Source: Myxococcota bacterium (GTDB taxonomy: Bacteria > Myxococcota_A > UBA796 > CAJQPC01). Taken from it: a DNA stretch of 64,000 nt. The stretch is taken from the NCBI GenBank assembly GCA_036012755.1, contig DASCPX010000129.1, forward strand, positions 1 to 64,000, written 5' to 3'. The notes beneath the pieces were generated by a model that made no database searches, was not told the DNA's origin, and worked only from the letters and a program-made list of their open reading frames with translations. The position numbers were made by a program, and so were the translations under genes. Of this stretch, positions 3,091-59,982 are shown in pieces (position 1 is the first letter of the stretch; the number at the start of each line of letters is the position of its first letter).

Positions 3091-4440
3091 TCACTGGGTG
3101 TCGAGGTAGCCGATGGCCTCCAGGGCACTCTGCATGCCCGGCGCGGTCTCGCTGCGGTCCAGGGACTGCATCGAGGAGATCACGCTCTCCAGCTGCTCCC
3201 TGGCGGGGTGGTCATCTGCAGAGAGCGGGTGATCCTCCGCCGGATCCGCGGCGAGGTCGTAACGAACGACCTCGTCGCCGGTCCAGTGGAGCTTGTCGTC
3301 GCCTTGCCACACGACAGCCTCCATGCGGTTGCCGAGCTTGCCATGGGACCAGTCCACCCAGGGCGCGAAGGGCCACACCGAGGCCTCGAGCGAGGGCAGC
3401 GGGTCCGGGAGTCGACCGTCGCGGGTGAGGTGGTAGGCGACCCTGGCCGAGACCTGGTCGGGGAGCGGTTCGTGGCCGCCGTCAGATTGCCACCACAAGA
3501 GCGGGACGCGGGCGACCGGCTCACCGATCACGTGAGCGTGGCGGACGAGCCCGTGCTCGCCGAGATACTCCCCGTGGTCCGAGGTGACGACCAGGCGAAG
3601 CCCCGCGGAGGTCCAGCCCCGCTCATCCAGGCGATCCAGCGCCCTGCTGAGGGCCTGATCCTCCAGGTGGATGCCGTAGTCGTAGTGCTCGGACATCGTC
3701 GTGAGCCACGCGGCCCGCTCCACCTCGTCCATCTCGCCGCGCACGAAGGCCTTGTAGTGGCGGACGAACCCCCTGGCCGCGGGACGCGGTTCGATCCACT
3801 CCACGCCTGGCGGGATGTCCTGCCAGGGGTCGTGGGCCTCGAGGAAGTTCATCACGAGGAAGAGCGGGCGATCCGGGTCGAGCTCTTCGAGCATCGCGTC
3901 GAAGGCCACGCTGTAGTCTGCTCCACGCAGGACCAGCCTCTTGGGATTGAAGCGGCTCACCCGCAGGATCTCGAAGCCCTGGGTCAGGCCCGTAGGGGGA
4001 AGGAGCAGGTCGTTCCCCGACACCAGGACGGTCTGGTAGCCCTGGCTCGCGAAGTGCTCGGCGAGGGTCTCTGCGTCTTCGTCCAGCGGGTGCAGCGCGA
4101 GCTCGCGCACCACGCGGCCACCCCCCTCCACGCTGTCCACGCCATGCTCGCTCACCGCCAACCCGGTGAAGAGGCTGGCGTGACTGGGCACCGTCCAGCT
4201 CGATGGCGCCAGGGCGCCACAAGACACCGACGCGCCTGTTGCCCGCAGCGCCTCGAGCCCGGGCGTGGTGGGCCGCTCGTGTCCGCACAGACTCGTCCGC
4301 GAGGATCGCACCGTGTCCATCACCGCGAGCACCACCGTGAGTCGGTCTGGTCGTCCGTGAACAGGAGCGACCTCGACGATCTCCACCGGGGGAGGCGCCG
4401 GGTCTTCCGAGCAGCCTGACCAGAGCGCGAGGTTCATCAC
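3091..4440 (-). CDS. Sulfatase-like hydrolase (alkaline phosphatase superfamily), probable lipoprotein
   Basis: MDTVR, WTVPSHASLFTG, NFLEAHDP, TSDHGE, C-terminal LEAIGY. Confidence 0.85.
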   Translation of the reverse strand: MMNLALWSGCSEDPAPPPVEIVEVAPVHGRPDRLTVVLAVMDTVRSSRTSLCGHERPTTPGLEALRATGASVSCGALAPSSWTVPSHASLFTGLAVSEHGVDSVEGGGRVVRELALHPLDEDAETLAEHFASQGYQTVLVSGNDLLLPPTGLTQGFEILRVSRFNPKRLVLRGADYSVAFDAMLEELDPDRPLFLVMNFLEAHDPWQDIPPGVEWIEPRPAARGFVRHYKAFVRGEMDEVERAAWLTTMSEHYDYGIHLEDQALSRALDRLDERGWTSAGLRLVVTSDHGEYLGEHGLVRHAHVIGEPVARVPLLWWQSDGGHEPLPDQVSARVAYHLTRDGRLPDPLPSLEASVWPFAPWVDWSHGKLGNRMEAVVWQGDDKLHWTGDEVVRYDLAADPAEDHPLSADDHPAREQLESVISSMQSLDRSETAPGMQSALEAIGYLDTQ

Positions 4441-4509
4441 GGCAGTTCCAGGTGAAGCGACCGTGGATCGACGGGACCCCCTTCGCCAGGATCACGCTAC
4501 CATGGCCCC

Positions 4510-5805
4510 TTGCTTGTGCTCCTCACCAGCCTTGTCATGGCCGCGGACGACTGTCCGACCCGGCCAGAACCGGATCGCTTCCACAACAAGGTCGAGGCCG
4601 TCAAGGAGCGAGTCGCGTTTGCGGAGCCGGATCTGACCCCGGTGCTCGACGAACTGCAGCTCGTGGCCGAGAAGTGCATCCAGGGGCCCGCCTACATCGA
4701 CGATCTGGCGGCGCTGCACATGGCGCGGGGGGCTTACGCGCTCCTCGCCAACGGCGACCCTGTCCTTGCCGAGGTCTACTTCGTCAACGCCGCCGCGCTG
4801 GCTGGAGCCAAGGCCAACGAGCCGCTCTACGGGCCAGAGGTCAGCGCGGCCCTGCTCGCGGTGCTGGCGCAGGACTCCCGCACCGCCGTGCTGGACATCA
4901 CCTTCCAGTGGGAGCCGGTCGTCCTCGTCCTCGATGGCGAGGTCCACTACGACTACGGCCCGAACGACGTCCCGGCGGGCTGGCACCTCGTCCAGTGGAA
5001 GGCAGAGGACCTCTGGTTCTCAGAGGCCGTCCAGCTTGGACCCGGAGGCCGGGCGCACGTCGGAGACGGCATCCCCTCCCCAGACGAAGTTGCCATCGGG
5101 GAGCTCGTCGAGGACGAGCCCAAGCGCGGCCGAGGCGGCAAGGACGACGACCTCATGGTCGAGGTCCGGACCGGCAACCGAGCCGGTCGAGAGAAGCGCG
5201 AGCGCCCGCAGACTGCGCTGCCGCCGGTGCTCTACGCCCCGGTCGAGGACCCCGGCGAGGTCACCGCCTTTGCCAGCTACCACGTCGCTCGCGCCACCGT
5301 CGGCGTCGGGTCCAGCACCTATGACGGCCTCGTCGGCGCGGCGGACGGGCGCCTTCGACTTCGCTACGGCAACCGCCTCCGTGTCGTCGCCGAGATCGGC
5401 ATGGGCGCCCCCAGCGGTGCCGGGCGCGTCAGCCTCTCGACCCGCGGTCGGCTCTACGGCGCCGTCGCCGGCGGCCCGGGCTGGAGTTGGCAGCTGGCAG
5501 CCGGTCCGGTCGTCGGTTTTCTCCCGGGTACGCTGGTGCCCCCCACCCCAGAGGCCGAGCCCACCTTCGCCGGTCAGCTGGCGTTCGGCGCTGGCGGGGA
5601 GCTCTCCGTGCAGCTCTCCGTGCTCGACGTCTACGCTCGTGGCGCCTGGTTGGGTGGTGCGATCGACGCCGGCGTTGGCGGCAGCTACCACATCAACCTC
5701 GGTCCAGTGCAGGTGCGACTCGGTCTCGAGGCCCGCAGCCTGACCTCCGGGTCGGATCGCTACCTCGGGCTCGCCGGCACTGGCGGCCTGGCGCTAGGAT
5801 TCTAG
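4510..5805 (+). CDS. Secreted hypothetical protein, possible C-terminal beta-barrel
   Basis: Short signal peptide; alternating beta-strand pattern ending in F; typical codon usage. Confidence 0.65.
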   Translation: MLVLLTSLVMAADDCPTRPEPDRFHNKVEAVKERVAFAEPDLTPVLDELQLVAEKCIQGPAYIDDLAALHMARGAYALLANGDPVLAEVYFVNAAALAGAKANEPLYGPEVSAALLAVLAQDSRTAVLDITFQWEPVVLVLDGEVHYDYGPNDVPAGWHLVQWKAEDLWFSEAVQLGPGGRAHVGDGIPSPDEVAIGELVEDEPKRGRGGKDDDLMVEVRTGNRAGREKRERPQTALPPVLYAPVEDPGEVTAFASYHVARATVGVGSSTYDGLVGAADGRLRLRYGNRLRVVAEIGMGAPSGAGRVSLSTRGRLYGAVAGGPGWSWQLAAGPVVGFLPGTLVPPTPEAEPTFAGQLAFGAGGELSVQLSVLDVYARGAWLGGAIDAGVGGSYHINLGPVQVRLGLEARSLTSGSDRYLGLAGTGGLALGF

Positions 5806-8800
5806 ATGCACCTCTTGTTCTGGCTCGCCTGCTTCTCTTCCTGGTCCATCCAGGACGGAGATGGCGATGGCGTCACGGCGCTGCAGGGCGACTGTGACGA
5901 CCTCGACCCCGAGATCTCCCCAGACGCGGAGGAGGTCTGGTACGACGGCGTCGACCAGGACTGTGACGGGGCCTCCGACTGGGACGCCGACCAGGATGGT
6001 CATGACACCCTCGAGGCGGGCGGGGAAGACTGCGACGACGAAGAGGCCGGAGCCTACCCGGGCAACACGGAGACCTGGTACGACGGCATCGACGGGGACT
6101 GCGGGGCGGACTCGGACTACGACGCCGACGGGGACTTCGTCGACTCCTCCGACTACGGGGGCGAAGACTGCGACGACACGGATCCCCTCGTCTTTCCCGG
6201 CGCCGCGGACAGCTGGTACGACGGGGTCGACTCGGACTGTGCGGGCAACTCCGACTACGACTGGGACGGTGACGGCTCGGACTCGGAAGACTACGGGGGC
6301 GAGGACTGCGACGACCGCGACGTCAACGTCGGCCCCGACGCCGACGAGGTCTGGTACGACTGCTTCGACGACAACTGCGACGGCAACGACGGTGACAAGG
6401 ACCTCGACACCTACGTCCCGGATTCCTACACCAGCAGCTGCACGAACTGGCTCGACTTCGAGGCCCACGTCAACGCTGGTGACTGCTGGGACGACTCGGA
6501 CGACCGGCCAGAGGACTACGTCGCTCTGAACGGCTTCCCGAACCCCGACCCGGGCGAGGTCTACCCGAGCGCTCCGGATGTCCCCTATGACGCCGTAGAC
6601 GCCGACTGCGCGGGCGACGACGGTGAGTGGGACGTCGACGCCGACGGGTACGACACGGACGCCTACGTCCAGCGCGACGGCTCCCTGGGCAGCGACTGCG
6701 ACGACGCCAACGCCGACGTGAACCCGTCCCAGGTAGAGGTCTGCGACGAGTCCGACGTCGACGAGGACTGCAACGGGGCCGCCGACAACGATGACGACAA
6801 CGCCCTGGGCATGACGCTCTGGTTCCCCGACGCCGACGCCGACGGCTACGGCGACGCCGACTCCAGCGGTTTCTCCGACTGCGACACCTCCCTGGAGTAC
6901 CCGCTTTCGGACGACACGGACTGCGACGACGACGACGCGAACACGAACCCGGGCTCCGACGAGTACTGCGACGGTCACGACGACGACTGCGATGGCGAGG
7001 TCGACGAAGACGACGCGCTGGACGCCGAGACCTGGTACCTGGACAGTGACACCGACGGCTACGGCGACGCTCTGGAGACCACGACCTCCTGCGAGCAGCC
7101 CAGTGGCTACGTCGACGACGACACGGACTGTGACGACGAGGACTTGGGCGTGAACCCGGGCACCACAGAGACCTGCGACGACGACGACACCGACGAAGAC
7201 TGCGACGGGCTCTCGGACGACGACGACAGCTCGGCCACAGACCAGGGCACCTGGTACGCCGACAGCGACGGGGACAGCTATGGCGACGAGAGCAGCTCGA
7301 GCTCGCAGTGTGACCCGGACAGCACCTACACGACCGATGTGGGCGGGGACTGCGACGACGCTGACGACACGGTCTACGACGGGGCCGACGAGCTCTGCGA
7401 TGGTCAGGACAACGACTGCGACGACACCATCCCCACCGACGAGATCGACGACGACTCCGATGGCGCCGTCGAGTGCGAGTTCGACATCGGCGGGTGGGAC
7501 GGGGACTCCGGCGTCACGGCGGACAACGACTGCGACGACGACGACAGCACGGTCAACGAGGCCGCCAGCGAGATCTGCGACGGTCAGGACAACGACTGTG
7601 ACGACACCATCCCCACCGACGAGACAGACGACGACGGCGACGGGGCTGTCGAGTGCACATGGGACTCCGGCGGTTGGGACGGGGACTCTGGCGTCACGGC
7701 GGAGGACGACTGTGACGACACGGACGCCACCATCTACGACGGCGCGGACGAGCTCTGCGATGGCCAGGACAACGACTGTGACGGCACCACTCCGACCGAG
7801 GAGACCGATGTCGACGGCGACGGGGCTGTCGAGTGCACCTTCGACAGCGGCGGGTGGGACGGCACCAGCGCCGTGACGAGCGGGGACGACTGCGACGAGA
7901 CCGACGACACGATCTACGACGGCGCGGACGAGCTCTGCGACGGTCAGGACAACGACTGCGACGGCAGCCTGGAGGAGGACGAGTCCGACGTCGATGGCGA
8001 TCTGTACGTCGCCTGCAGCGAGGACAGCGGCGGCTGGGATGGCTCGACGGCGCCCTCGGGCTACGACGACTGCGACGACGAAGACAGCTCGGTCAACGCC
8101 GGCGCCAGCGAGGTCTGCGACGGTCAGGACAACGACTGCGACGGCAGCACTCCCACGGACGAGACCGACGTCGACGGCGACGGCTACGTGCCCTGCACAG
8201 AAGACAGCGGCGGGTGGGACGGCTCCAGCTCGGTCGTCGGGGGCGACGACTGCGACGACGGCGACGGGGCGACGTACCCGGGCGCTGCAGAGAGCGAGAG
8301 CAGCACCTCGTGCATGACGGACGACGACGAGGACGGCTACGGCTCGGACACCGTCGCGAGTGGGGTCACGGCCGGGAGCGACTGCGATGACGGCTCCTCC
8401 ACGGTCTACCCCGGTGTCGCGGCGAGCGACTCCAGCACTGCGTGCATGGAGGACGACGACGGCGACGACTACGGCGACGACTCTCCCTCGAGCACAGGTG
8501 CGACGGCTGGCACGGACTGCGACGACACCTCGAGCGCCATCAACCCGGGCGAGCCAGAGGTCTGCGACTCCTCGGACACCGACGAAGACTGCGACGGACT
8601 CGCCGACGACGACGACAGTGACGCCAACGGAAAGACCGAGTGGTCCACCGACAGCGACGGCGATGGCTACGGCGACGAAGACGCGAGCAAGACGAACTAC
8701 TGCGACGGCCCCTCTGGGACCGGGTCACCGGCGACCGACTGCGATGACTCCCGCGCCTCGGCCAACCCGGGGTCCACCGAGACCTGTGGAGACGAGATCG

Positions 8801-9402
8801 ACCAGGACTGCGACGACATCGTCAACGAGGGCTGCTACGTCGCCGGCGATCTCATCATCACCGAGATCATGTACAACCCGAGCTACTCGGAGCCCGACGG
8901 GGAGTACATCGAGCTCCGGAACACGACCTCGAGCGCCATCTGGCTCGACGGCTGGCGCTTCTACGAGGACGGCAACGTCTTCTACGGCGGTGTGGGCGGG
9001 GCCTACGTGCCGCCCCACGACTACGCCATCGTCTGCTGGGGCGACGACACCTTCGACAACAGCAGCTACGTCTGCGACTACGAGTATGGGACCGACCAGA
9101 ACGAGAGCTCAGACGTTGGCAACACCTACAACTCCTCGTGGTCGCTCAGCACCAGCGGGACCCTGACGCTCTCCATCGACGGCACGACGATCGACACGGT
9201 GGTCTTCAGCAACGGTGGCAGCTGGCCGAGCAGCAACGACGGCTACGCCATCGAGCTCGGCTCCTCGTACGAGACCGACACCTACAACGACTCGGGTGGG
9301 TACTGGTGCCAGGTCTCCGGCGAGTACACAGCTCTCTACTACAGCGCCGGGGGCTATTCAGAGCATGGCTCACCGGGGCTTCCGGCAGCGTGCACGCCGT
9401 AG
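5806..9402 (+). CDS. Large acidic lipoprotein with MopE-type DCDD repeats and C-terminal lamin-tail-like domain
   Basis: MHLLFWLAC lipobox; many DCDD...E.WYDG.D.DC repeats; LIITEIMYNP...GEYIELRN...GSPG. Confidence 0.85.
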   Translation: MHLLFWLACFSSWSIQDGDGDGVTALQGDCDDLDPEISPDAEEVWYDGVDQDCDGASDWDADQDGHDTLEAGGEDCDDEEAGAYPGNTETWYDGIDGDCGADSDYDADGDFVDSSDYGGEDCDDTDPLVFPGAADSWYDGVDSDCAGNSDYDWDGDGSDSEDYGGEDCDDRDVNVGPDADEVWYDCFDDNCDGNDGDKDLDTYVPDSYTSSCTNWLDFEAHVNAGDCWDDSDDRPEDYVALNGFPNPDPGEVYPSAPDVPYDAVDADCAGDDGEWDVDADGYDTDAYVQRDGSLGSDCDDANADVNPSQVEVCDESDVDEDCNGAADNDDDNALGMTLWFPDADADGYGDADSSGFSDCDTSLEYPLSDDTDCDDDDANTNPGSDEYCDGHDDDCDGEVDEDDALDAETWYLDSDTDGYGDALETTTSCEQPSGYVDDDTDCDDEDLGVNPGTTETCDDDDTDEDCDGLSDDDDSSATDQGTWYADSDGDSYGDESSSSSQCDPDSTYTTDVGGDCDDADDTVYDGADELCDGQDNDCDDTIPTDEIDDDSDGAVECEFDIGGWDGDSGVTADNDCDDDDSTVNEAASEICDGQDNDCDDTIPTDETDDDGDGAVECTWDSGGWDGDSGVTAEDDCDDTDATIYDGADELCDGQDNDCDGTTPTEETDVDGDGAVECTFDSGGWDGTSAVTSGDDCDETDDTIYDGADELCDGQDNDCDGSLEEDESDVDGDLYVACSEDSGGWDGSTAPSGYDDCDDEDSSVNAGASEVCDGQDNDCDGSTPTDETDVDGDGYVPCTEDSGGWDGSSSVVGGDDCDDGDGATYPGAAESESSTSCMTDDDEDGYGSDTVASGVTAGSDCDDGSSTVYPGVAASDSSTACMEDDDGDDYGDDSPSSTGATAGTDCDDTSSAINPGEPEVCDSSDTDEDCDGLADDDDSDANGKTEWSTDSDGDGYGDEDASKTNYCDGPSGTGSPATDCDDSRASANPGSTETCGDEIDQDCDDIVNEGCYVAGDLIITEIMYNPSYSEPDGEYIELRNTTSSAIWLDGWRFYEDGNVFYGGVGGAYVPPHDYAIVCWGDDTFDNSSYVCDYEYGTDQNESSDVGNTYNSSWSLSTSGTLTLSIDGTTIDTVVFSNGGSWPSSNDGYAIELGSSYETDTYNDSGGYWCQVSGEYTALYYSAGGYSEHGSPGLPAACTP
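7351..8250 (+). repeat. Five intragenic 180-bp (60 aa) tandem repeats
   Basis: Cys-Asp codons recur at 7351, 7531, 7711, 7891, 8071 and 8251; each unit carries CDGQDNDCD and GGWDG. Confidence 0.85.
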
Positions 9403-25607: not shown

Positions 25608-26368
25608 TCCTGGTGGGCTGCCCTCCAAAGGTCCCGGCGCCGACGGGCCCGGTGGCGCTGGACGACCGCCCGGTGTTGCTCGGCTGGCGCCTGGTGCCTG
25701 GGGACGTGCACCGCTACGCCCTCACCACCCAGTGGGGCGTGGGGGTCGAGGAGGTGCTGCGCGTCGAGCGCTGGGACTACCTCGTGCGCTCCGTGGACGA
25801 AGAGGGGGTGGCCACCCTCGAGGGCAGCCTCGTCGGGCTCGGTGCCGAGGTCCGGCGCCAGGGCCAGCCCTACGACGTCGGCCTGGAGGTGGCCCGCGGC
25901 GCCGAGAAGGAGCGCCTGGGCACCGTCACCCTGTCCCTGGCGCGGGACGGGCGGCTCGTCGCGATCGAGGGCCTGGACTGGGCCGACGCGTTGCCCCACC
26001 GGCTGCTCGCATTGCGGCTCTCGGCAGAGGAGATCCGCCGCGGAGACGTCTGGCCCGACCCGGTGCTGGCGCGGCCCTATGCTTCGCTCATGCCCGTCTC
26101 CCTGGACGTGACCGTCGAGGGCTACTCGACCTTCGAGGGGCTCTACCAGGTCGGCGAGCGCGTGCTCGCGCGGCTGTCCACCCGGGGCGCCGTCAAGCCG
26201 GCGGAGCTGGGGGCGCCGGAGGTCTGGCTCTCTGGCGAGACCTGGTGGGACCCGCTGAATGGCCTCGTCGACAGCCGCACCTTGTCGGCCTCTCTAGGCA
26301 ACGTGCGGGGCGAGCCGGGGACGCTGTCGCTGGGCATCGAGCGCGTGGAGGTCAGGCCCGCGCAGTGA
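25595..26368 (+). CDS. Hypothetical lipoprotein
   Basis: LALILVGC lipobox; overlaps the bioF stop. Confidence 0.65.
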   Translation: MLALILVGCPPKVPAPTGPVALDDRPVLLGWRLVPGDVHRYALTTQWGVGVEEVLRVERWDYLVRSVDEEGVATLEGSLVGLGAEVRRQGQPYDVGLEVARGAEKERLGTVTLSLARDGRLVAIEGLDWADALPHRLLALRLSAEEIRRGDVWPDPVLARPYASLMPVSLDVTVEGYSTFEGLYQVGERVLARLSTRGAVKPAELGAPEVWLSGETWWDPLNGLVDSRTLSASLGNVRGEPGTLSLGIERVEVRPAQ

Positions 26369-40933: not shown

Positions 40934-41425
<492 letters not shown>

Positions 41426-44762: not shown

Positions 44763-45090
44763 TCGCCGTCCCGCTCGAACCGGAAGGTCCTCGGCCCGTC
44801 CTCGACGAGCAGTTCGTGGTCTTCCATGTGGAGGAGGTAGCGCCGGTCACCGGCTTCGACGGACAGGGAGTCGCAGTCCGGCGTCATCGGCGTGAGTATG
44901 GCCGGCTCCGCGTGGCGCCGCGTTCAGGTCGGTATCCAAATCCGACCTCGCTCACGGCCAGCGATGCCTCGAACTCCGGCGGGGGTAGCTCCTTGCCCTT
45001 GTGGCTGGCGCCGGTCTGGCGCCAGGAGCCATGAGACCAGGCGCAGGGGTCGGTGCCGCAGGCCAGCAGGAGGAGTGCTGCGGCGGTCAT
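44759..45090 (-). pseudogene. Small lipoprotein, frameshifted near 44915
   Basis: MTAAALLLLAC; second frame ...TPDCDSLSVEAGDRRY...DGE* ends in an ATGA overlap with 44762. Confidence 0.55.
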
Positions 45091-45693: not shown

Positions 45694-47358
45694 TCAGTCC
45701 GGCATGCCGACGACCGTGCGCACGCCGTCGCGGGCCACCCAGACCTTCTGGTTCGCGTCGACGTCAGCGTGACGCGTCACGGTGCCGTCCGGCCAGATGA
45801 CGTCGAGGCGATCGACGGTCTCGTGTTCACCCAGGCCGAAGTGGGCCTCGTTGGGCCCGCCGTACCCCAGCGAGGTCCCCCCGGCGACGATCCAGCGGAT
45901 CTGTGACTCGCCGTCGACCACCACGCGGACCTTCGCGCCGATGGCGTGGGTGTTGGGCGCCGGGTGGGCGAGGCGGACCCTCAGCCAGTTGTCTGTCCCG
46001 CAGCGGGAGAGGTGGAGCGTCGCTGGCTCGTAGGCCATGCGCTTGACGATGTCCAGGTAGCCGTCATCGTTCAGGTCGACGGGCGCGAAGCCCCGCCCGG
46101 CCCCGAGCTGGTCCGAGAAAGCCCAGTCGTCGGCGACGAGCTCGAAGACGCCGTCGTCGTTCTGCAGCCAGAGCCCGTCCGGCTGCTCTTCGGGGTTCTC
46201 GGGGTGCTCCCGTCGCGCTCCCCGGATGGACTCGCCGAACATGACGACGAGGTCGAGGTCCGTGTCGTTGTCCAGGTCCACCAACTCGGCGCCCCAGGCG
46301 ACGATGCGGTCGTCCTCCTTCGGCAGGGTCAGGCCGCGGACCGCGGTCGTGTCGTACCAGGACATCGGCCCCGCCGACTCGAGGAGCCACAGGCGTCCCC
46401 AGTCGGTGACGAGCATGTCGATGTACTCGTCCCCGTTGAGATCCCCGATGCCAAGGCCCATCCCGTCCATGTCCAGGAAGGCGGAGGATTCGCCGCTGAT
46501 GTCCTCGAAGAGCAGCTCCCCGTCCTCGATGCGGTTCTCGAGCAGGCGGTTGCCGTACATGATGTGGCCGAAGGCGTTCACCGAGTAGAGATCGGGGTCG
46601 AGGTCCGCGTCGAGGTCCAGCCAGGCCGTGAGGAAGGTGTAGCTGACGCTGGCCTCGCGGGACAGGATGTCCTCGCGCAGCTCGAAGCTGCCGTCGCCGA
46701 GGTTCTCGTAGACCTGGTTCGGAGGCCCGTCGTCGGGAGGATCGTAGAACTCCTCGTCGGCGGTGGAGGTCTCGTTCGACACGACGAGGTCCAGGTCTCC
46801 GTCGAGGTCCATGTCGCCCCACGCGCTGCCCTTCGAAGCGTAGACCAGCTCTTCGAACACGCTGGTCCTCGTGGCATCGGTGAACCAGCCCCCGTCGTTG
46901 CGGTACAGACGGTTCTTCAAGCCCACCGCCTGCGCAAAGACGTCTATGTCCCCGTCACCGTCGTAGTCCGCGGCGCTCCCTCCCCACAGGTTGTGTTCGT
47001 TGCGATCCGGCAGGATCTCGTCACTCAGATCGCTCATCGACCCGTCGTCCTTGAGCCTGAAGACCCACGAGGCCGACTTGTTCGTGAGGAAGATCTCGTA
47101 GCGCCCGTCCCCGGTGATGTCCGCGACGACGAGGCCCGGAGAGTCGCGCCGTTCTCCGCTGTCGTAGGGCTGGTCGTTCCACGTGTCGCCAAGGTCTGGA
47201 GCGTAGAGCGGCCCCTCGGTCTCGCGCAGGGAGGGGTCTTCGCAGGTGATCTGTTCCCCGAGGATCAGGTCCCCGTCCACGAGGATCTCGCCAGCGTTGT
47301 CACCGGCCTCCGCGCCGGGTCTCGGCGTCGGTCCGCTGCAGGCCAGGAGCCAGATCAC
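45694..47358 (-). CDS. CRTAC1/ASPIC-UnbV family FG-GAP lipoprotein
   Basis: IWLLAC; AD.DGDGD.D repeats; NWLRVRL...NT.AIGAKV.V...HFGLG...V.WPDG. Confidence 0.88.
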   Translation of the reverse strand: MIWLLACSGPTPRPGAEAGDNAGEILVDGDLILGEQITCEDPSLRETEGPLYAPDLGDTWNDQPYDSGERRDSPGLVVADITGDGRYEIFLTNKSASWVFRLKDDGSMSDLSDEILPDRNEHNLWGGSAADYDGDGDIDVFAQAVGLKNRLYRNDGGWFTDATRTSVFEELVYASKGSAWGDMDLDGDLDLVVSNETSTADEEFYDPPDDGPPNQVYENLGDGSFELREDILSREASVSYTFLTAWLDLDADLDPDLYSVNAFGHIMYGNRLLENRIEDGELLFEDISGESSAFLDMDGMGLGIGDLNGDEYIDMLVTDWGRLWLLESAGPMSWYDTTAVRGLTLPKEDDRIVAWGAELVDLDNDTDLDLVVMFGESIRGARREHPENPEEQPDGLWLQNDDGVFELVADDWAFSDQLGAGRGFAPVDLNDDGYLDIVKRMAYEPATLHLSRCGTDNWLRVRLAHPAPNTHAIGAKVRVVVDGESQIRWIVAGGTSLGYGGPNEAHFGLGEHETVDRLDVIWPDGTVTRHADVDANQKVWVARDGVRTVVGMPD

Positions 47359-50810: not shown

Positions 50811-52529
50811 TCAGGGCACGCAGTCCAGGGCGAGGTCTCCCTCGCTCAGCTGTGAGTACAGGCCCTCCTGCGTCGCGTCCGAGTCCGCCCTGCCTCCGTG
50901 GAGGTAGACGAAGCCCTCGTCGCTCGTCGCCACCGAGTACCACTCGCGCGCCTTCGCCAGGGACGCGACCTCAGCGAAGGCCTCGCCAGGGGCCGCCGAG
51001 AGGACGCCGAGGCCGTCGGCGTCTGCGCCTGGGAAGACGTAGACGTAGTCCCCGTCGGACTCGACGTTCAGCCACAGACCCATGAACGTCCCGAAGTCGA
51101 TCTGTGTCCAGTTCCCGAGCGAGCCCCTCGACTCCACGGGTGCCCGGTAGCCTCGCGTGATCCAGTCGCTGTCGGAGCCCGAGCGCCAGGAGCCGACTAC
51201 GACGAGCTCATCGGCGGCGAAGGCCGCGCCGACGTAGCCGCCGTCGAGATCCTCTGGGAAGTCCGAGCTCTGCTGCCAGCCCTCGGGCAGGTTGTCCTGG
51301 TCCAGCTCGGTGAAGTACACGCGCTGTCGCGTGATGCTGTAGAGGACATCCTCGCGGTGCCGGATCACGTTCGCGTAGCCGGGGCTGTCCGTCATGGTCC
51401 AGCCTTGGGGCTCGCCGTCTGTGAGCAGGGCGGTCCAGGCGTTCTCTCCGTTGATCGCGTACAGACGATCGCGGCCGGCGTGGAAGCGTGTCTCCTCGCC
51501 CGAGTCGAGCTGCGGGCCCTCTCGCCAGCGCCCGACCCGTCCGTCGTCCAGGATCGGAGCCCAGTAGGTGCTGCCGTCCTCGTCTCCGCCGCCGACGTAG
51601 ATGGCGCCCTCCCAGACCCGCGCGTGGTGGGTCTGGAGGTAGACCGGCAGCGAAGAGGTGTCCCCCCAGGTCGCGACGGTGGAGATGAGCTCGACGCTGT
51701 CCTGCCACGAGCCCTTCAGGCGGTCGCGCTCGAAGTCCAGCCCGAGCACGTGGCTGCCGTCGTCGACGTCGCTGCACCACGTCGCCAGGACCAGGGCGTC
51801 CCGGGTGTCGAGCAGCCTCTCGAGGACCTCGTTGGCGATCTCGGGCAGATCCGCGATGTCCTTCGCCTTCCAGCTGCCGTGGGTCGCGACGTCCTCGTGG
51901 TCCGTGCCGACACCGACAGCCATCACCGCGAGCTCGCCCCGGGCGGCCTGCACCGACTCCAGCGAGGTGTCGTCCACCGGATCGCCCCCGTCGCTCAAGA
52001 GCACGATGACGCTGCGCTCGAGCGGCTCACCCGTGAGCAGCTGGTCCTCCACCTCCGCGAAGGCGTCCACGAGCGCGGCGTTTCGGTTGGTGGGCCCCGA
52101 AGCCGCCGTGAGCGCGTCGATCGCATCGCGCATCTTGTCGGTGTCCGTGGTCTCCGGGCGCAGCACCTCGACGTCCTCGTCGAAGCCGATCATCGTGAAG
52201 GTCTGGTGCTCGTCGAGGTTCTCTGCGATCTTCGTCGCGAAGCTCTGGATCTCGGCGAGGTCGCCGGAGTCCTCGAGGGCGAGGTCCACCAGGAGGACGA
52301 CGGACTGGGTCCCGTCGAGCTCTTCGAAGCCGCGGTAGCGGGGCAGCACCTCGGAGCCGTCGATGGTGGTCGTCAGCTCGTCTCCGGACCACGCCACGCC
52401 GCGTCCTCGCGCGTCGACGAGCTCGACGAGGATGTGGGCGCGGTTGGGGGCCGATGCCCCGGCCCACAGCCCCTTCGCGGAGACGGGGCCCTTGTAGTCG
52501 GCGTTGCAGGCGAGCAGCAAGAGGAGCAT
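50811..52529 (-). CDS. Lipoprotein with VWA-like domain and kelch-like beta-propeller
   Basis: MLLLLLAC; VVLLVD...IGFD...T...AL..A...VLLSDG; IYVGGG and VYLHGG kelch motifs. Confidence 0.72.
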   Translation of the reverse strand: MLLLLLACNADYKGPVSAKGLWAGASAPNRAHILVELVDARGRGVAWSGDELTTTIDGSEVLPRYRGFEELDGTQSVVLLVDLALEDSGDLAEIQSFATKIAENLDEHQTFTMIGFDEDVEVLRPETTDTDKMRDAIDALTAASGPTNRNAALVDAFAEVEDQLLTGEPLERSVIVLLSDGGDPVDDTSLESVQAARGELAVMAVGVGTDHEDVATHGSWKAKDIADLPEIANEVLERLLDTRDALVLATWCSDVDDGSHVLGLDFERDRLKGSWQDSVELISTVATWGDTSSLPVYLQTHHARVWEGAIYVGGGDEDGSTYWAPILDDGRVGRWREGPQLDSGEETRFHAGRDRLYAINGENAWTALLTDGEPQGWTMTDSPGYANVIRHREDVLYSITRQRVYFTELDQDNLPEGWQQSSDFPEDLDGGYVGAAFAADELVVVGSWRSGSDSDWITRGYRAPVESRGSLGNWTQIDFGTFMGLWLNVESDGDYVYVFPGADADGLGVLSAAPGEAFAEVASLAKAREWYSVATSDEGFVYLHGGRADSDATQEGLYSQLSEGDLALDCVP

Positions 52530-52549
52530 GCACGCATTATGAGCGCGAG

Positions 52550-53974
52550 ATGCTTATCCTCGCTCTGTTGGCCTGCAAGAAGGACCCCGAGTCCCTGCTG
52601 TTCCCGGAGGGCTTCCTCTTCGGGACCGCCACCGCCGGCTTCCAGGTCGAGGCGGGCTGCCCGACCATCGCGCCAGAGGACTGCGAGGACCGCAGCTCCG
52701 ACTGGTACCAGTGGGTCACGGACGAGGAGCTCGTCGCCGACGGGACGACCTTCAACTCCGGGGACCCCATGACCTGGGCCCCGGGGCACTACGAGCTCTA
52801 CGAGGACGACTTCGAGCGCGCGGCCGAGTTCGGCGGCGCCTTCCGGTTCAGCTTCGAGTGGTCCCGGCTCTTCCCCGACGCAGCTGCAGAGGACGCCGCG
52901 ACCGTCGAGGAGCTGGCGGAGCTCGTCGATCCGACGGCGCTTGCCTGGTACCACGACTACCTCGACGCCATGAGCGCCCAGGGGCTGACGCCGGTGGCGA
53001 CGGTGAACCACTACACGCTGCCGCTGTGGGTCCACGACGGCAAGGTCTGTCGGGACGACCCCACGGGCTGCGAGGCCAGCGGGTGGGTCGACGGGGACCG
53101 CATGATCCCGCTGATCACGCTCTTCTCCCAGTACCTCGGGCGGGAGTTCGGCGATGACATCCAGCTCTGGCTCACGCTCAACGAGCCGCTTGCCGTCATC
53201 GTCAGCGGCTACCTCTTCCCGAGCGAGGACCGCACGAATCCCCCGGGCGTCTCCGACCCGGAGCTCGCCCTGGCGGTTGCCTGGAACATGGCTCGGGCTC
53301 ACGCCGCGATGGCAGAGGCCATCCGCGCAGAGGACGCTGACGCAGAGGTCGGCGTCGTCGTGAACCTCGGCGTCGCCTACCCGGAAGACGACACCGACGT
53401 CGACGATGTCCGCGCAGCCGAGCACCTCGACTACGTCTACAACCAGGCCATCCTCGAGATGTTCCTGGAGGGCAGGCTGGACAGCAACCTCGACGGCCTG
53501 GTCGACGAAGAGGACAGCAGCATCGCCGGCAAGACCGACTGGCTCGGTCTGAACTACTACTTCGCCTTCGAGGTCGGCGGCTTCCCTCGCTCGATCTACT
53601 CGGCCTACCCGTACATGGACTTCTTCCCGAAGACACTCGACTCGGATCCGGCCTACTTCGGCGAGGCCATCGACATGACCGCCGAGTGGGGTCTGCCCAT
53701 CTACATCACCGAGAACGGCGTAGCAGACCCGACCGCAGACGACGCCGTGGCCTACCTCGACCCGGCACTGCGCACAGTCTGCGAGAAGGCCGTCGAGCAC
53801 GACGTTCGCGGATACATGTACTGGTCCCTCATCGACAACTACGAGTGGAACCACGGCATGGGCATGCGCTTTGGTCTGTACGAAGTCGACACGGACACGA
53901 AGGCGCGCACCCTCCGGCCCATCGGAGAGAGGTACGCAGAGATCGTGTCGGATCACGGCTTCGTCGGAGAGTAG
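52550..53974 (+). CDS. Glycoside hydrolase family 1, lipoprotein
   Basis: FPEGFLFGTATAGFQVE, FRFSFEWSR, TLNEP, ITENG, WSLIDNYEW. Confidence 0.92.
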   Translation: MLILALLACKKDPESLLFPEGFLFGTATAGFQVEAGCPTIAPEDCEDRSSDWYQWVTDEELVADGTTFNSGDPMTWAPGHYELYEDDFERAAEFGGAFRFSFEWSRLFPDAAAEDAATVEELAELVDPTALAWYHDYLDAMSAQGLTPVATVNHYTLPLWVHDGKVCRDDPTGCEASGWVDGDRMIPLITLFSQYLGREFGDDIQLWLTLNEPLAVIVSGYLFPSEDRTNPPGVSDPELALAVAWNMARAHAAMAEAIRAEDADAEVGVVVNLGVAYPEDDTDVDDVRAAEHLDYVYNQAILEMFLEGRLDSNLDGLVDEEDSSIAGKTDWLGLNYYFAFEVGGFPRSIYSAYPYMDFFPKTLDSDPAYFGEAIDMTAEWGLPIYITENGVADPTADDAVAYLDPALRTVCEKAVEHDVRGYMYWSLIDNYEWNHGMGMRFGLYEVDTDTKARTLRPIGERYAEIVSDHGFVGE

Positions 53975-54469: not shown

Positions 54470-55591
54470 ATGCTGCTCGCCTTGACCTCGCTGTCCCTGG
54501 CGCAGGACTGCAATGTCCGAGCGCTCGAGAAGGAGCTCGAAGAGGTGAGCCCTTCCAACGTCCCAGCCGCCTTCGACGAGCTCGCTGCTTGCGACGCTGT
54601 CGCCGCGAAGGCAGCGGCTTCCGTCGCCTTCGAGCGGGTGCTGTCCGGAGAGGGCGGAAACCAGCTCGTGATCTCGGCGGTCAAGGTCCAGGCCTGGGAC
54701 GAGCCGCGGACCTGGATCACCGGCCTGCAGTCCGACGAGCGCAGCCGCACCATCGCTGCCCTCGGCGCTGCCTGCGGCAAGCACGAAGAGGTCGCGAGTT
54801 TCCTCGTCTACACGCAGACCAAGCTGGGCGACGGCTTCTGGACGAACCGCTGGTACCGCAGCCTCGCGGAGTGCCGGCAGCCCGCTGTGCAGGAGATGCT
54901 CTACAACGAGGTCTCCAGCGGCCAGAAGGACCGCACCCGGTACTTCGGGGTGCTCGAGGTCTACAGCCGCAACCTCGGTGCCGGTGCGATCCCGCTGCTG
55001 AGCGAGCAGCTGGCGACGATCACGGACGAAGAGGAGCTCACCTACATCGTCAACGCCTTCGCGGACGCTGCCCACGTCGGCGCGCTCGAGGGTCAGGACC
55101 CCGAGGCGACGAAGCTGGCGGTCGAGGCCATCGTCGCCGCGGCCCCCGACCTGCCGCCGCGGGCTGTGGAGCAAGGCCGCACCACCTTGCGCAGCCTCGG
55201 GGACGAGGACGCCGCGAACAAGCTGGTCGCGATCCGGTACCAGGACGTGATGCGGGACGACGGGCTCCACTGGGGCCTCGTGGCCGTCGAGACGGGCACC
55301 TGCAAGAAGGACACGCGGGTGAACATCCACACGGGCAAGGTCATCGAGGCCGGAACGATGTGGCCGGATCAGGTCGCCGCGGTCATCGAAGAGGCCACCA
55401 GCGCCGCCTGGAGTTGGCCGCTGGCGAAGAAGTGCGAGGTCCAGACCCAGATCATCATCTCCGCCGAGCCGATGGACGCCGCCGGGATGAATGCCTGGAC
55501 CAAGGAGCAGGTGCACGACGCGACCCGGGCCGCCACGTCCACGGCCTCCAAGATCGCCACAGTTCCGGAAGAGAGTCCGGTCTCCCTCTGA
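54470..55591 (+). CDS. Secreted helical hypothetical protein
   Basis: Signal MLLALTSLSLA|QD; typical codon usage. Confidence 0.7.
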   Translation: MLLALTSLSLAQDCNVRALEKELEEVSPSNVPAAFDELAACDAVAAKAAASVAFERVLSGEGGNQLVISAVKVQAWDEPRTWITGLQSDERSRTIAALGAACGKHEEVASFLVYTQTKLGDGFWTNRWYRSLAECRQPAVQEMLYNEVSSGQKDRTRYFGVLEVYSRNLGAGAIPLLSEQLATITDEEELTYIVNAFADAAHVGALEGQDPEATKLAVEAIVAAAPDLPPRAVEQGRTTLRSLGDEDAANKLVAIRYQDVMRDDGLHWGLVAVETGTCKKDTRVNIHTGKVIEAGTMWPDQVAAVIEEATSAAWSWPLAKKCEVQTQIIISAEPMDAAGMNAWTKEQVHDATRAATSTASKIATVPEESPVSL

Positions 55592-55662: not shown

Positions 55663-55674
55663 TCACCAGAGGCC

Positions 55675-56199
55675 ATGCACCGACACGCCTTCATCGCCAC
55701 AGCCATCGCCTCAACCCTCTTGTTCGCCTGCTCGCAGCCTTTCTGGGACGTCGAGGAGAGCGCCGATCTCGGCACCTTCGAGGCCGCGGGCGACGACATC
55801 GTCGATGTCCGCCTGAGCTTCCAGGGCGACTCCCGCGCAGAGGAGATGGAAGGTCACGTCGTCATCAGCGAGCTCGCCTACGACCTCGACGACGACGTCG
55901 TCCTCACCGTGTGGGCGCGGGACCCGGGGGACTCGGTGCTCGACGGCAACCTGGCGACGGTCGACATCGTGCTTCCGGTCGCCAACAACGCCGACACCCG
56001 CCTGAACTTCAGCCCGGAGTGCTTCGAGACCAGCTGCGACCATGACGTCGAGATCCGCTTCCAGCTGGATCGCGAGCTCGAAGATGGTGAGTTCGTCGAG
56101 CTCGACCTCGCCGCATTCGCCAGGGCGGAAGGTGACTATCCCGATGGCAGCGTGGTCGAGGACCACCAGGCCGCCCTCAGCTTCTCGATCGTGGAGTAG
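55675..56199 (+). CDS. Hypothetical lipoprotein
   Basis: Conventional signal ending LFAC; acidic mature domain. Confidence 0.7.
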   Translation: MHRHAFIATAIASTLLFACSQPFWDVEESADLGTFEAAGDDIVDVRLSFQGDSRAEEMEGHVVISELAYDLDDDVVLTVWARDPGDSVLDGNLATVDIVLPVANNADTRLNFSPECFETSCDHDVEIRFQLDRELEDGEFVELDLAAFARAEGDYPDGSVVEDHQAALSFSIVE

Positions 56200-57831: not shown

Positions 57832-57855
57832 CGACAGTGGTTGCCCGCCCCGTAC

Positions 57856-59982
57856 CTAGAACGCGCAGCTGTACAGGTAGCTGATCTCCTCGCGCGTCAC
57901 GCCCCCGGGCGAGACCACCACCACCTCGAGGTGGGTCCCCTCGAAGGAGTGCACCCACCCGCCGAAGACCGTGCGGTCGCGGACGCGCCAGGCCGCCACG
58001 TATTGCGGCACGTGGCGGGGGTGCTCGAGGTCGAGGGGCTCTGTTTCGAAGCCGTCCATCAGGGTGGTCGAGACGTCGAAGTCCGCCACCACCACCTCGT
58101 CGAGGAGGAGCTCGGCCGTGTACTCACCGGTCTTCATCAGGACCAGCTCGTGGCCTCCCGCCTTCCAGCTGCGATGGCGCTCCCCGACGTGGGCCTCCAG
58201 CTCCAAGGCCGAGGCGTCCGTTCCGGGCTCGACCAGCCAGGTGAGACCTGGACGAATCGGGGCCCCGAACAGCGGCGACAAGGTCAGCGCGGTCCCCTCG
58301 CAGCCGTAGCGGCCCTCCTCTGAAGGGCGGACCTCGAGCACCCCGCCGTCGAGGGAGACGATGGGCTCGTAGGCGGGCAAGGCGCCCCCGAGCACCACGA
58401 CCGGTGATGAAGCCACGACGTCGAACCAGCCCCCCGACACGATGCCCAGCCAGCCTGGCAGGCCGGCGAGGTCGGGCTCCGGCCAGATCACGCCGAGGCG
58501 CTCGGCGTCGAGCACCGGGAGATCCTCGTCGAAGTCACCGGAGGCGATGACCTCGTCCCCAGAGGCCACCAGCCAGTCCGTGGGTCCGTGGAAGAGCCCG
58601 TTGATGCCCTCGATGTCCTCGTCTACGGATGCCGCGTAGAGCACGATGGGCACCTCGACGTCGTCTGGGTGGGGACGAGTGATGATGAGCCTGGGCCGCT
58701 CCACGTCGAAGCGCTGACCGTCGACGAGCACACCGGTCTCGTCGATGGTGATCTCCAGCTCCTCCAGCCACGCCGCCAGCGCCGGACTGGACATCGGGGA
58801 GCCGTAGTGGACCTCTGCCACGGGTGTATCGGAGCTCCAGTCGAGGCCGACCCGCTCCACCCCCCGCTTCCGCATGAAGTGCTCGTACATGGCGTCCGCG
58901 TAGGCGAGGTCCGCGGGTGCGACGAACACGCTCCCAGGACCCAGCCGCTCGAAGGCGGCGTTGATCGGACCCCGGAAGCCCGCCGGGTAGGTCGGCTCGG
59001 CTCCCCACTCGGCGAAGATCGTGGCGAGGTCCTCTGCGGCACTAGCCAGGTCGACCTCGCCCTCCCGGCGCAGCCCGTCGAGGTAGGTGACGACCTCGCC
59101 GACCCAGTAGAAGCCTCGCCCGATCTCGTAGCCCAGGGCCTCGCGCCCTGCCTGGACACCGTAGGCGTCGAGGGCGTAGAGCACCGTCAGCGCTCGCACG
59201 CCTGTCTCGTTCACGACGATCTGCCAGTCGCCATAGGCCTGGTCCCGCATGTGCGTCCGGACATGCCCGAAGACGCTCTCGCCTGCGGACTCCAGCACCT
59301 CTGACCGGGACTCCAGCGCCGGGTTCACGTAGGCGTGGCCGAGCTCGTGAACCAGCAGGTACTGCAGCCCCCTGCCGCTCGAGCCTGGACCCAAGACCGG
59401 TGAGAACTGCACGTCGCCGTCGATCTCCGCGCTGACGCCGTAGTTGTTGGGGCCCACCAACAAGCCGGGGATCACCGTGTAGGAGGCGCCCTCGGCCGGG
59501 CCGAAGAAGCCATCGAGCCAGCTCACGACCTGGTCGCCGCCGGCCTCGCGGAAGTGGGCCTCCACCTCCGAGCGGTGGTCCGCGTGGTCCTCGTAGAAGG
59601 TTGCAAACTCGCTGTCGGCGGCGAAGTCCCTGAGATGACGCAGGAACTTCTCTGCGTCGCGGGCCGTCCAGCGGTCGTCGAGGCGAGCCGGGTGGGGGTC
59701 CAGCGGCACCGCCGGTCGCAGGAGGGGATCGAGGTGGACCGCCAGGTCGACCGGGGCGTTGTAGGCGATGCCTCGCCGGATCCGGAGCCGCCTGGCTGCC
59801 TTCACTGCGCTGTGCCGCTCGTAGGGGGCGAAGTGGTCGTCGACGGCCCGGGCGTAGTCGTCGTCGGCGATGTTGTACTCGTGGGCCCCGCTGAGCCTGA
59901 AGACGATCGAGACGAGCTCGACGCGGGGGTCCACCCGGACCTCCAGATCCGCTGCCGAGGCGAGGGAGATGATCCAGATCAT
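57856..59982 (-). CDS. DUF4932-domain putative zinc metallopeptidase
   Basis: VDPRVELVSIVFRL; HELGHAYVNP (HExxH); AY..W...VNE..VRA. Confidence 0.8.
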   Translation of the reverse strand: MIWIISLASAADLEVRVDPRVELVSIVFRLSGAHEYNIADDDYARAVDDHFAPYERHSAVKAARRLRIRRGIAYNAPVDLAVHLDPLLRPAVPLDPHPARLDDRWTARDAEKFLRHLRDFAADSEFATFYEDHADHRSEVEAHFREAGGDQVVSWLDGFFGPAEGASYTVIPGLLVGPNNYGVSAEIDGDVQFSPVLGPGSSGRGLQYLLVHELGHAYVNPALESRSEVLESAGESVFGHVRTHMRDQAYGDWQIVVNETGVRALTVLYALDAYGVQAGREALGYEIGRGFYWVGEVVTYLDGLRREGEVDLASAAEDLATIFAEWGAEPTYPAGFRGPINAAFERLGPGSVFVAPADLAYADAMYEHFMRKRGVERVGLDWSSDTPVAEVHYGSPMSSPALAAWLEELEITIDETGVLVDGQRFDVERPRLIITRPHPDDVEVPIVLYAASVDEDIEGINGLFHGPTDWLVASGDEVIASGDFDEDLPVLDAERLGVIWPEPDLAGLPGWLGIVSGGWFDVVASSPVVVLGGALPAYEPIVSLDGGVLEVRPSEEGRYGCEGTALTLSPLFGAPIRPGLTWLVEPGTDASALELEAHVGERHRSWKAGGHELVLMKTGEYTAELLLDEVVVADFDVSTTLMDGFETEPLDLEHPRHVPQYVAAWRVRDRTVFGGWVHSFEGTHLEVVVVSPGGVTREEISYLYSCAF

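What the first reader, a model, noticed from the sequence alone, without database searches (positions are those of the whole stretch)
4411..59982. Window-wide ultra-short signal peptides with no basic n-region: possible non-canonical export/lipidation system
Seen: at least 13 predicted lipoproteins have Cys at residue 7-11 with no Lys/Arg before it: MMNLALWSGC (4440-), MHLLFWLAC (5806), MIWLLALAC (16198), MLLLLAC (17636-), MLALILVGC (25595), MLLWIAC (27627), MIILLAC (28307), MYLFALLYC (40934), MILLWLAC (44762-), MTAAALLLLAC (45090-), MIWLLAC (47358-), MLLLLLAC (52529-), MLILALLAC (52550). SPase I-type signals are similarly short: MLVLLTSLVMA, MLLIGTAFA, MWVVLIQLALA|QD, MLLALTSLSLA|QD, MIWIISLASA. 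Mis-called starts do not explain all of them: 5806 directly follows an in-frame TAG, and 28307, 44762 and 52529 are already the most upstream starts. Established: canonical Sec and lipoprotein signals have a basic n-region and usually about 15-25 residues. Inference: this lineage uses altered SRP/SecYEG/Lgt/LspA recognition or a dedicated route.
Basis: partly seen in the sequence, partly recalled or inferred. Interest (0 to 1): 0.85.

Follow-up and report, generated by a model that had tools for sequence, protein, structure and literature searches.

The report
Ultra-short uncharged export signals, genome-wide
In this uncultured myxobacterium-like genome, hundreds of exported-type proteins begin with a methionine and only five to ten greasy residues, with no positively charged start, about a third to half the textbook signal-peptide length.

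Summary
All 13 lipoprotein-type and 5 signal-peptidase-I-type N-termini are at the stated coordinates. Nine of the 13 are solid, two have a plausible upstream start with Arg (40934, 47358), one gene is frameshifted (16198), and one ORF is doubtful (45090).

In the whole genome, 357 of 5642 usable genes have a lipobox Cys at residue 6-11 with no canonical start further upstream. Chance would give about 5. Upstream stop codons, Shine-Dalgarno signal, non-coding statistics upstream, orthologues and public gene calls all support these starts.

The trait also covers non-lipoprotein signals. It is graded across the order and was not seen in one class-level relative or in E. coli.

SecY, SecA, Ffh, LepB, Lgt, LspA and Lnt are all present and canonical, SecY is almost unchanged, and paralogue numbers do not track the trait.

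My best reading is that these are ordinary Sec signals truncated to a Leu-rich core fused to the cleavage motif. Earlier notes of this scan reported the same trait on other pieces of this genome and in other Myxococcota. I found no paper describing it.

The parts
3091..4440 (-). Sulfatase-family lipoprotein, leader MMNLALWSG|C, GTG start
   Evidence: no canonical start in the 17 codons back to the in-frame TGA; PF00884 from residue 35
4510..5805 (+). SPI-type short leader MLVLLTSLVMA, TTG start, 431 aa
   Evidence: no start further upstream; no Pfam hit
5806..9402 (+). MopE-repeat / lamin-tail lipoprotein, leader MHLLFWLA|C
   Evidence: ATG directly after in-frame TAG, AGGA at -10; PF11617 x11, PF00932
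16198..17063 (+). Lipoprotein gene with leader MIWLLALA|C, apparently frameshifted near 16310-16330
   Evidence: GGAGGA before the ATG; coding potential moves from the 16198 frame to the 16221 frame after about 40 codons
17064..17636 (-). Lipoprotein, leader MLLLLA|C, GTG start; upstream GTGs at -5 and -14 codons add a mainly acidic stretch (one Arg)
   Evidence: weak C2 hit
21691..23505 (+). SPI-type short leader MLLIGTAFA, DUF3604 protein
   Evidence: only start in the 31 codons after the stop
25595..26368 (+). Lipoprotein, leader MLALILVG|C, GTG start overlapping the end of the upstream gene
   Evidence: no other canonical start in 153 upstream codons; GGAG at -15
27627..28310 (+). Lipoprotein, leader MLLWIA|C, GTG overlapping the upstream stop by one base
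   Evidence: the nearest alternative start is 114 codons upstream, inside the preceding gene
28307..31267 (+). CotH / lamin-tail / F5-8-type-C lipoprotein, leader MIILLA|C, GTGA start-stop overlap
   Evidence: in-frame TAA 4 codons upstream, no other start
34644..35621 (+). TonB_C protein, SPI-type short leader MWVVLIQLALA|QD
   Evidence: in-frame TGA 5 codons upstream; GAGG at -12
37119..38789 (+).
   Evidence: stop 11 codons upstream, no other start; GGAG at -9
40934..41425 (+). Small lipoprotein, leader MYLFALLY|C; start ambiguous (GTG 13 codons upstream)
   Evidence: GAGG at -9 favours the ATG
43995..44762 (-). MopE-repeat lipoprotein, leader MILLWLA|C
   Evidence: no other start in the 28 codons after the stop
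44884..45090 (-). Doubtful 68-aa ORF with leader MTAAALLLLA|C
   Evidence: weak coding potential; ATGA overlap with the stop of the 45087-45545 ORF
45694..47358 (-). FG-GAP / ASPIC lipoprotein, leader MIWLLA|C, or a 17-residue leader with two Arg from the GTG at 47388
50811..52529 (-). VWA-domain lipoprotein, leader MLLLLLA|C; best-documented case
   Evidence: stop 9 codons upstream; orthologues and 8 of 8 public gene calls share the short start; a family-level orthologue has a canonical 19-residue leader with the Cys aligned
52550..53974 (+). GH1 glycosidase lipoprotein, leader MLILALLA|C; start codon 20 bp from the divergent 52529 start
   Evidence: the only alternative ATG lies 32 codons upstream, inside the divergent gene
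54470..55591 (+). SPI-type short leader MLLALTSLSLA|QD
   Evidence: ATG directly after in-frame TGA; GGAG at -10
57856..59982 (-). DUF4932 protein, SPI-type short leader MIWIISLASA
   Evidence: no other start in the 29 codons after the stop
62284..63843 (+). In-window comparator: canonical 17-residue lipoprotein leader with Arg (MSRTALVIGALGATLIG|C)
55675..56199 (+). In-window comparator: canonical-length lipoprotein leader with Arg (MHRHAFIATAIASTLLFA|C)

Best explanation
These are genuine Sec-type signal peptides, of both the lipoprotein (SPase II) and the SPase I kind, reduced to the initiator Met plus a very Leu-rich core of 4-9 residues that runs straight into the cleavage motif (consensus M-L-L-L-L-L-A-C, or ...A-F-A|Q-D). 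The basic n-region has been lost and most of the h-region with it. Inferred steps: targeting and opening of SecY rest on hydrophobicity alone, with extra Leu, even at lipobox position -2, making up for the lost length and charge. The uncharged N-terminus can sit inside the bilayer, so a leader too short to span the membrane can still present the Cys or the A-x-A site to the canonical Lgt/LspA/Lnt or LepB at the outer face. The trait arose by stepwise N-terminal truncation of ordinary leaders and has spread to different degrees across one uncultured Myxococcota order. It is strongest in this genus, where roughly 70-85% of lipobox leaders are of the short kind.
For: True starts. 357 of 5642 usable genes have a lipobox Cys 5-10 residues after the farthest possible canonical start. 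Start codons are ATG 215, GTG 131, TTG 11. 105 of the 357 have an in-frame stop with at most 3 codons before the start, against 555 of 1947 control starts. An SD core is present in 43% of both sets against 17% at random sites. Where the upstream frame is open for 15 or more codons, it looks non-coding: log-odds -0.43 per codon and GC3 0.56 for 153 short genes, -0.47 and 0.55 for 828 controls, against GC3 0.88 downstream.
Excess over chance is 61-fold.
Orthologues of 50811-52529 keep the short leader in 5 genomes, two of them with a stop 3 codons upstream, while genus g2 has a 19-residue leader with three Arg and the Cys aligned. Further pairs show the same.
8 of 8 public gene calls for this protein family start with M plus 6-8 uncharged residues and then C.
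Window proteins carry exported-type domains: sulfatase, OmpA, TonB_C, VWA, MopE, CotH, FG-GAP.
Generality. 609 of 2331 hard-start genes (26%) open with an uncharged hydrophobic run, 244 with a lipobox and 365 without, 169 of the latter ending in an AxA-like motif. The figure is 3 of 76 in E. coli and 1 of 39 in a class-level relative.
Compensation. Leu sits at -2 in 375 of 567 short leaders against 14 of 87 canonical leaders in the same genome (Fisher p 5e-19). Leu fraction is 56% against 30%.
Canonical machinery is present.
Against: There is no experimental evidence that any of these proteins is exported, cleaved or lipidated. My gene caller and lipobox rule are crude: they found none of the annotated lipoproteins in 200 kb of E. 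coli, and the rule forces an uncharged run. 127 of 831 lipobox genes could use either a short or a canonical start, and 50 fit neither class. Relatives were sampled at only 80-250 kb each, and kin are not independent. A leader of 6-8 residues is shorter than anything I recall being shown to work with wild-type Sec machinery, so some adaptation of the machinery may exist that I did not detect. The roles I give to the N-terminal amine, membrane depth and SRP are inference only.
Confidence: 0.72

Rival explanations
1. One reading: the lineage has altered SRP/SecYEG/Lgt/LspA recognition or a dedicated export and lipidation route for these leaders.
For: The genome has five Lgt and two LspA paralogues, including an lspA-lspA-lgt-lgt cluster at G000:C59:100000-102591. 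The two genera with the strongest trait (g1, g6) have two lgt genes in that cluster. The SecY pore-ring position aligned to E. coli I187 is Ala here. Short leaders have a distinct lipobox with Leu at -2.
Against: LspA copies do not follow the trait: G029 has two in tandem and no trait, while G008 has one and shows the trait. All 13 genomes searched have 3-6 Lgt, and genus g4 has the trait with one lgt in the cluster. Ala or Ser at the pore position is shared by all 11 order members aligned, with or without the trait, and occurs in 19 of 140 diverse SecY representatives. The rest of the plug, TM2b and TM7 is nearly identical. SPase-I-type signals are shortened too, so a lipoprotein-only route cannot explain the trait. 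Orthologues switch between leader types.
Confidence: 0.15
2. The hydrophobic N-termini are real but are not cleaved signals. They would be short uncleaved membrane tethers, or the proteins would stay cytoplasmic.
For: No processing data exist. GH1 enzymes such as 52550-53974 are often cytoplasmic (recalled). Leaders of 6-8 residues cannot span a bilayer.
Against: The Cys is invariant and aligns with the lipobox Cys of canonical orthologue leaders. The non-lipoprotein class ends in A-x-A-like motifs followed by Q/A-D/E. The domain content (OmpA, TonB_C, sulfatase, VWA, MopE) needs export. Lgt, LspA, Lnt and LepB are all present.
Confidence: 0.08
3. The short leaders are artefacts. The true starts would lie upstream at canonical or non-canonical codons or through stop read-through, and would supply a basic n-region.
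For: Two window cases have plausible upstream GTG starts with Arg (47358, 40934). 127 of 831 lipobox genes allow either start.
Against: 357 genes have no canonical upstream start at all, and 105 of them have a stop with at most 3 codons before the start. The distribution of upstream stops, the SD frequency and the upstream non-coding statistics all match control genes. Orthologues place stops at different upstream positions. Public gene calls agree with the short starts.
Confidence: 0.03

Closest known systems
Canonical bacterial lipoprotein (Sec/SPase II) signal peptides, E. coli Lpp type
   Same: N-terminal position, hydrophobic core, lipobox ending in an invariant Cys with a small residue at -1 (A 71%, G 16%, S 13%) and Leu at -3 (69%). 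Lgt, LspA and Lnt are present. The Cys aligns with that of canonical orthologue leaders.
   Different: No basic n-region. Total length is 5-10 residues before the Cys, against the roughly 15-25 I recall as usual. Position -2 is Leu in 66%, where canonical leaders of the same genome mostly have V, T, A or S.
Canonical Sec/SPase I signal peptides (tripartite n-h-c)
   Same: Hydrophobic core followed by an A-x-A-like site and a polar mature start. LepB-like genes are present.
   Different: The n-region is reduced to the initiator Met. Whole leaders are 9-13 residues, as in MLLIGTAFA and MLLALTSLSLA.
Engineered minimal or poly-leucine signal peptides, and prlA (SecY) suppressor strains of E. coli
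   Same: The principle that higher hydrophobicity can make up for a lost positive charge or shorter length, and that a looser SecY tolerates defective signals. One SecY pore-ring position here is Ala instead of Ile.
   Different: This is the natural default state of a whole proteome, not a laboratory construct. The SecY change is order-wide, is found in 19 of 140 diverse SecY, and does not track the trait.

Membership tests
Lipoprotein (SPase II) signal peptide | Lipobox [LVI][ASTVI][GAS]C at the N-terminus with an invariant Cys | tested here: met
   831 of 5642 usable genes match a slightly widened rule. The Cys is conserved in orthologues and in 8 of 8 public homologues. Position -2 is unusually Leu.
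Lipoprotein (SPase II) signal peptide | Positively charged n-region (at least one Lys or Arg before the core) | tested here: not met
   357 genes have no canonical start upstream of a 5-10 residue uncharged leader. 567 of 831 allow only a short leader.
Lipoprotein (SPase II) signal peptide | Hydrophobic core and total length in the usual range (about 15-25 residues; figure recalled) | tested here: not met
   In the short-only class the Cys lies 5-10 residues after the start, with the mode at 7.
Lipoprotein (SPase II) signal peptide | Processing enzymes Lgt, LspA and Lnt encoded | tested here: met
   LspA 2 copies, Lgt 5, Lnt 1 over the cut-off.
Lipoprotein (SPase II) signal peptide | Diacylglyceryl transfer to the Cys and cleavage before it | not testable with these tools
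   Needs proteomics or a reporter assay.
Sec/SPase I signal peptide | n-h-c architecture with an A-x-A site | tested here: inconclusive
   The core and an AxA-like end are present in 169 of 365 non-lipobox short leaders. The n-region is absent. No trained predictor was available.
prlA-like (relaxed) SecY | Destabilising change in the pore ring or plug that goes with tolerance of defective signals | tested here: inconclusive
   The position aligned to E. coli I187 (numbering recalled) is A or S in 11 of 11 order members, whether or not they show the trait, and in 19 of 140 diverse SecY. The other five pore positions, F286 and the plug are conserved.

The most novel reading that the evidence does not exclude
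This clade is a natural experiment in the minimal Sec signal: a formyl-Met plus 5-7 hydrophobic residues is enough for targeting, translocation and lipidation of about a quarter of the proteome. A clade-level permissive change would make this possible. Candidates are the small pore-ring residue in SecY shared by the order, an unusual membrane composition, or specialised Lgt paralogues. After such a change, leaders would erode at different rates in different genera.
Probability: 0.25. Interest if true: 0.85.

Novelty: new variant of a known kind. Interest (0 to 1): 0.68.

Why it matters
The tripartite signal peptide with a basic n-region is textbook, and it is built into prediction rules and predictors. 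If a whole order exports and lipid-anchors hundreds of proteins with 6-10 residue uncharged leaders, several things follow. Envelope proteomes of these widespread uncultured Myxococcota are likely being under-predicted. The old question of how little information Sec targeting needs becomes testable with natural sequences, including matched short and canonical orthologue pairs. Very short secretion or lipidation tags might also be usable in engineering. The trait is graded across genera, which gives material to map what permits it.

Tried and rejected
1. Mis-called or non-canonical upstream starts: rejected.

2. LspA duplication as the cause: rejected, because copy number does not follow the trait.

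3. Lgt copy number: only a weak tendency (4-5 copies in trait-rich genomes, 3 in several trait-poor ones, but 6 in weak G003 and 5 in untyped G025). I do not use it as evidence.

4. SecY remodelling: only 8 conservative columns separate 4 trait-rich from 4 trait-poor genomes, which is compatible with phylogeny alone. The pore-ring Ala/Ser is order-wide and not rare.

5. Ffh M-domain: single copy everywhere, and its scores do not sort by trait.

6. RNA evidence for 5' ends at the 20-bp divergent pair 52529/52550: no RNA holder was listed.

7. Literature: five full-text searches listed no paper on ultra-short or n-region-less bacterial signal peptides in Myxococcota. I saw listings and abstract starts only and read no paper.

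8. Phylum-level complete genomes (G052, G053) were not sampled, so the outgroups are one class-level relative (G064) and 200 kb of E. coli.

9. No signal-peptide predictor was available. No structure or complex prediction was run, because neither would decide the question.
Full report
OBSERVATION. The window is G000:C129:1-64000, from a 6.73-Mb draft genome of 250 contigs with 68% G+C.

One search gives, for each one, the distance to the in-frame upstream stop and any canonical start codon in between:
- 5806 and 54470 follow a stop codon directly.
- 28307 has TAA 4 codons upstream, 34644 has TGA 5 upstream, and 52529 has TAA 9 upstream.
- 4440, 25595, 44762, 4510, 21691, 37119 and 59982 have no other ATG/GTG/TTG back to the stop.

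Four of the 13 lipoprotein claims are weaker:
- 47358 could start 10 codons upstream at a GTG preceded by GGGAGA, which would give a 17-residue leader with two Arg.
- 40934 has a GTG 13 codons upstream.
- The 16198 gene changes frame after about 40 codons.
- The 45090 ORF is 68 aa with weak coding potential.

The window also holds ordinary leaders with Arg, at 62284 and 55675, and an SPI-type one at 19686. The two kinds therefore coexist.

IS IT MORE THAN CHANCE, AND ARE THE STARTS RIGHT? I called genes with a simple codon log-odds model, which gave 5773 genes covering 90.7% of the genome. This caller is crude.

831 of 5642 usable genes carry a lipobox-like motif after an uncharged run near the N-terminus. 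Measured from the farthest possible canonical start, the Cys lies 5-10 residues downstream in 357 genes (counts 3, 65, 129, 78, 51, 31). Only 127 genes fall at 15-25.

The same pattern occurs at 328 of 5642 first-possible starts but at 80 of 84662 internal start-like codons. That is a 61-fold excess, with 5.3 expected by chance.

For the 357 short-leader genes:
- Start codons are ATG 215, GTG 131, TTG 11.
- 105 have an in-frame stop with at most 3 codons before the start, against 555 of 1947 control starts, so the proportions match.
- An SD core lies at -18..-4 in 43%, against 43% of control starts and 17% of random sites.

Where the upstream frame happens to be open for 15 or more codons, it looks non-coding. 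Log-odds are -0.43 per codon and GC3 is 0.56 in 153 short-leader genes, against -0.47 and 0.55 in 828 controls. Downstream GC3 is 0.88-0.90. This excludes both canonical and non-canonical upstream starts for the class as a whole.

COMPARATIVE EVIDENCE. The VWA lipoprotein at 50811-52529 has orthologues with the same short leader in G002 (same genus, stop 3 codons upstream), G005 (stop 3 codons upstream), G001 and G012. In G003 (another genus of the family) the orthologue has a 19-residue leader with three Arg, and its Cys and the following residues align with ours.

Eight of eight public gene predictions for this protein family start with M, 6-8 uncharged residues and then C, followed by a conserved mature N-terminus.

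A BLAST of the 567 short-leader proteins against my samples of relatives gave further pairs in which G003, G004, G029, G032 or G033 has an Arg-bearing leader of ordinary length at the aligned Cys. At 40% identity or more:
- G002: 8 short-only, 3 either, 4 with no lipobox at the aligned site.
- G003: 3 canonical-only, 1 short-only, 1 either, 3 with no lipobox at the aligned site.
Many lower-identity hits are paralogues, and I did not count them.

SCOPE. Within G000 the 831 lipobox leaders divide into 567 short-only, 87 canonical-only, 127 that allow either start, and 50 that fit neither. The consensus is M-L-L-L-L-L-A-C.

Short leaders have Leu at -2 in 375 of 567, against 14 of 87 canonical leaders of the same genome (p 5e-19). 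Their Leu fraction is 56% against 30%. The lipobox has in effect been absorbed into the hydrophobic core.

The trait is not limited to lipoproteins. 609 of 2331 genes with a well-bounded start (26%) open with an uncharged hydrophobic run of 5-16 residues. Of these, 244 have a lipobox and 365 do not, and 169 of the 365 end in an A-x-A-like motif.

Pfam domains of the window proteins are of exported types: sulfatase, OmpA, TonB_C, VWA, MopE, CotH, F5/8-C, FG-GAP.

DISTRIBUTION. I sampled 80-250 kb from each of 14 relatives and ran the same pipeline on each. Counts of lipobox genes with no upstream start, per usable genes:
- Same genus: G002 18/224.
- Same family: G007 13/167, G012 7/170, G008 6/168, G003 4/168, G006 1/139, G004 0/157.
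- Other families of the order: G024 5/141, G032 2/144, G033 1/159, G022 1/63, G029 0/156, G036 0/90.
- Class-level relative: G064 0/156.
- E. coli K-12, bases 1-200000: 0/159, with 3 of 76 uncharged N-terminal runs, none of them signal-like.

The trait is therefore graded across one order rather than present or absent. The samples are small and kin are not independent. The nearest named relatives of the window's malate dehydrogenase are uncultured Myxococcota MAGs.

MACHINERY. The genome encodes:
- one SecY, one SecA and one Ffh M-domain;
- three LepB-like genes;
- two tandem LspA genes and five Lgt genes, two of which follow the LspA pair;
- one Lnt over the family cut-off and two deformylases.

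SecY from 11 order members aligns almost without change in the plug, TM2b and TM7. Only 8 conservative columns separate four trait-rich from four trait-poor genomes.

One pore-ring position, aligned to E. coli I187 (numbering recalled), is Ala or Ser in all 11 members, whatever their trait status. Among 140 diverse SecY representatives with the motif, this position reads I 77, V 22, A 12, M 11, T 8, S 7 and other 3. At most it is a permissive background.

LspA copy number does not follow the trait: G029 has two in tandem and no trait, G008 has one and shows the trait. Lgt numbers 3-6 in all 13 genomes searched.

MECHANISM. What is shown: the starts are genuine, the leaders are short, uncharged and Leu-rich, they are positionally homologous to canonical leaders, and the canonical machinery is present.

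What is inferred: hydrophobicity substitutes for charge and length in targeting and SecY gating. An uncharged N-terminus lets a leader too short to span the membrane settle towards the outer leaflet, where Lgt, LspA and LepB act. Leaders eroded from the N-terminal side, which is easy in a high-G+C genome where core codons such as GTG can become starts.

That higher hydrophobicity offsets a missing charge in E. coli signal peptides, and that prlA alleles of SecY tolerate defective signals, is recalled from the literature and was not read here.

NOVELTY. Five full-text searches listed nothing on this trait (listings and abstract starts only). Earlier notes of this scan describe the same trait on three other pieces of this genome, in several other uncultured Myxococcota, and in a hot-spring bacterium said to lack SRP. 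Here Ffh is present.

I class it as a new variant of a known kind. Its proposal of altered or dedicated machinery is not supported by the tests I could run, though it is not excluded.

Noticed in passing
window 52529-52550: The start codons of the divergent genes 50811-52529(-) and 52550-53974(+) are only 20 bp apart. That leaves no room for two promoters and 5' leaders between them, so the promoters may lie inside the neighbour's coding region or the mRNAs may be leaderless.
   Followed up: partly
window 16198-17063: A lipoprotein gene with a strong GGAGGA site and a short leader changes reading frame after about 40 codons, near 16310-16330. This could be an assembly indel, a pseudogene or a real frameshift.
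   Followed up: partly
genome-wide (G000), position -12..-9 of starts: An in-frame stop codon lies exactly 3 codons upstream of the start in 72 of 357 short-leader genes and 303 of 1947 control genes (T at -12, A at -11, G at -10/-9). It looks like a stop embedded in an extended SD-like TAAGGAG/TGAGG motif.
   Followed up: no
G000:C59:100000-102591: A cluster of two lspA genes followed by two lgt genes. The genome has five Lgt-family paralogues, and relatives have 3-6. Their division of labour is unknown.
   Followed up: partly
genome-wide (G000): About 15% of usable genes (831 of 5642) carry a lipobox-like N-terminus, which would be an unusually large predicted lipoproteome.
   Followed up: no
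window 26863-31267: Three genes are joined by overlapping stop and start codons (TAGTG at 27625-27629, GTGA at 28307-28310). The second and third genes have short lipoprotein leaders, which suggests a translationally coupled operon ending in a CotH-domain lipoprotein.
   Followed up: no
G000:C80:13376-14725 (SecY): The pore-ring position aligned to E. coli I187 is Ala here, and Ala or Ser in all 11 order members aligned. This is a minority state, seen in 19 of 140 diverse SecY representatives.
   Followed up: yes
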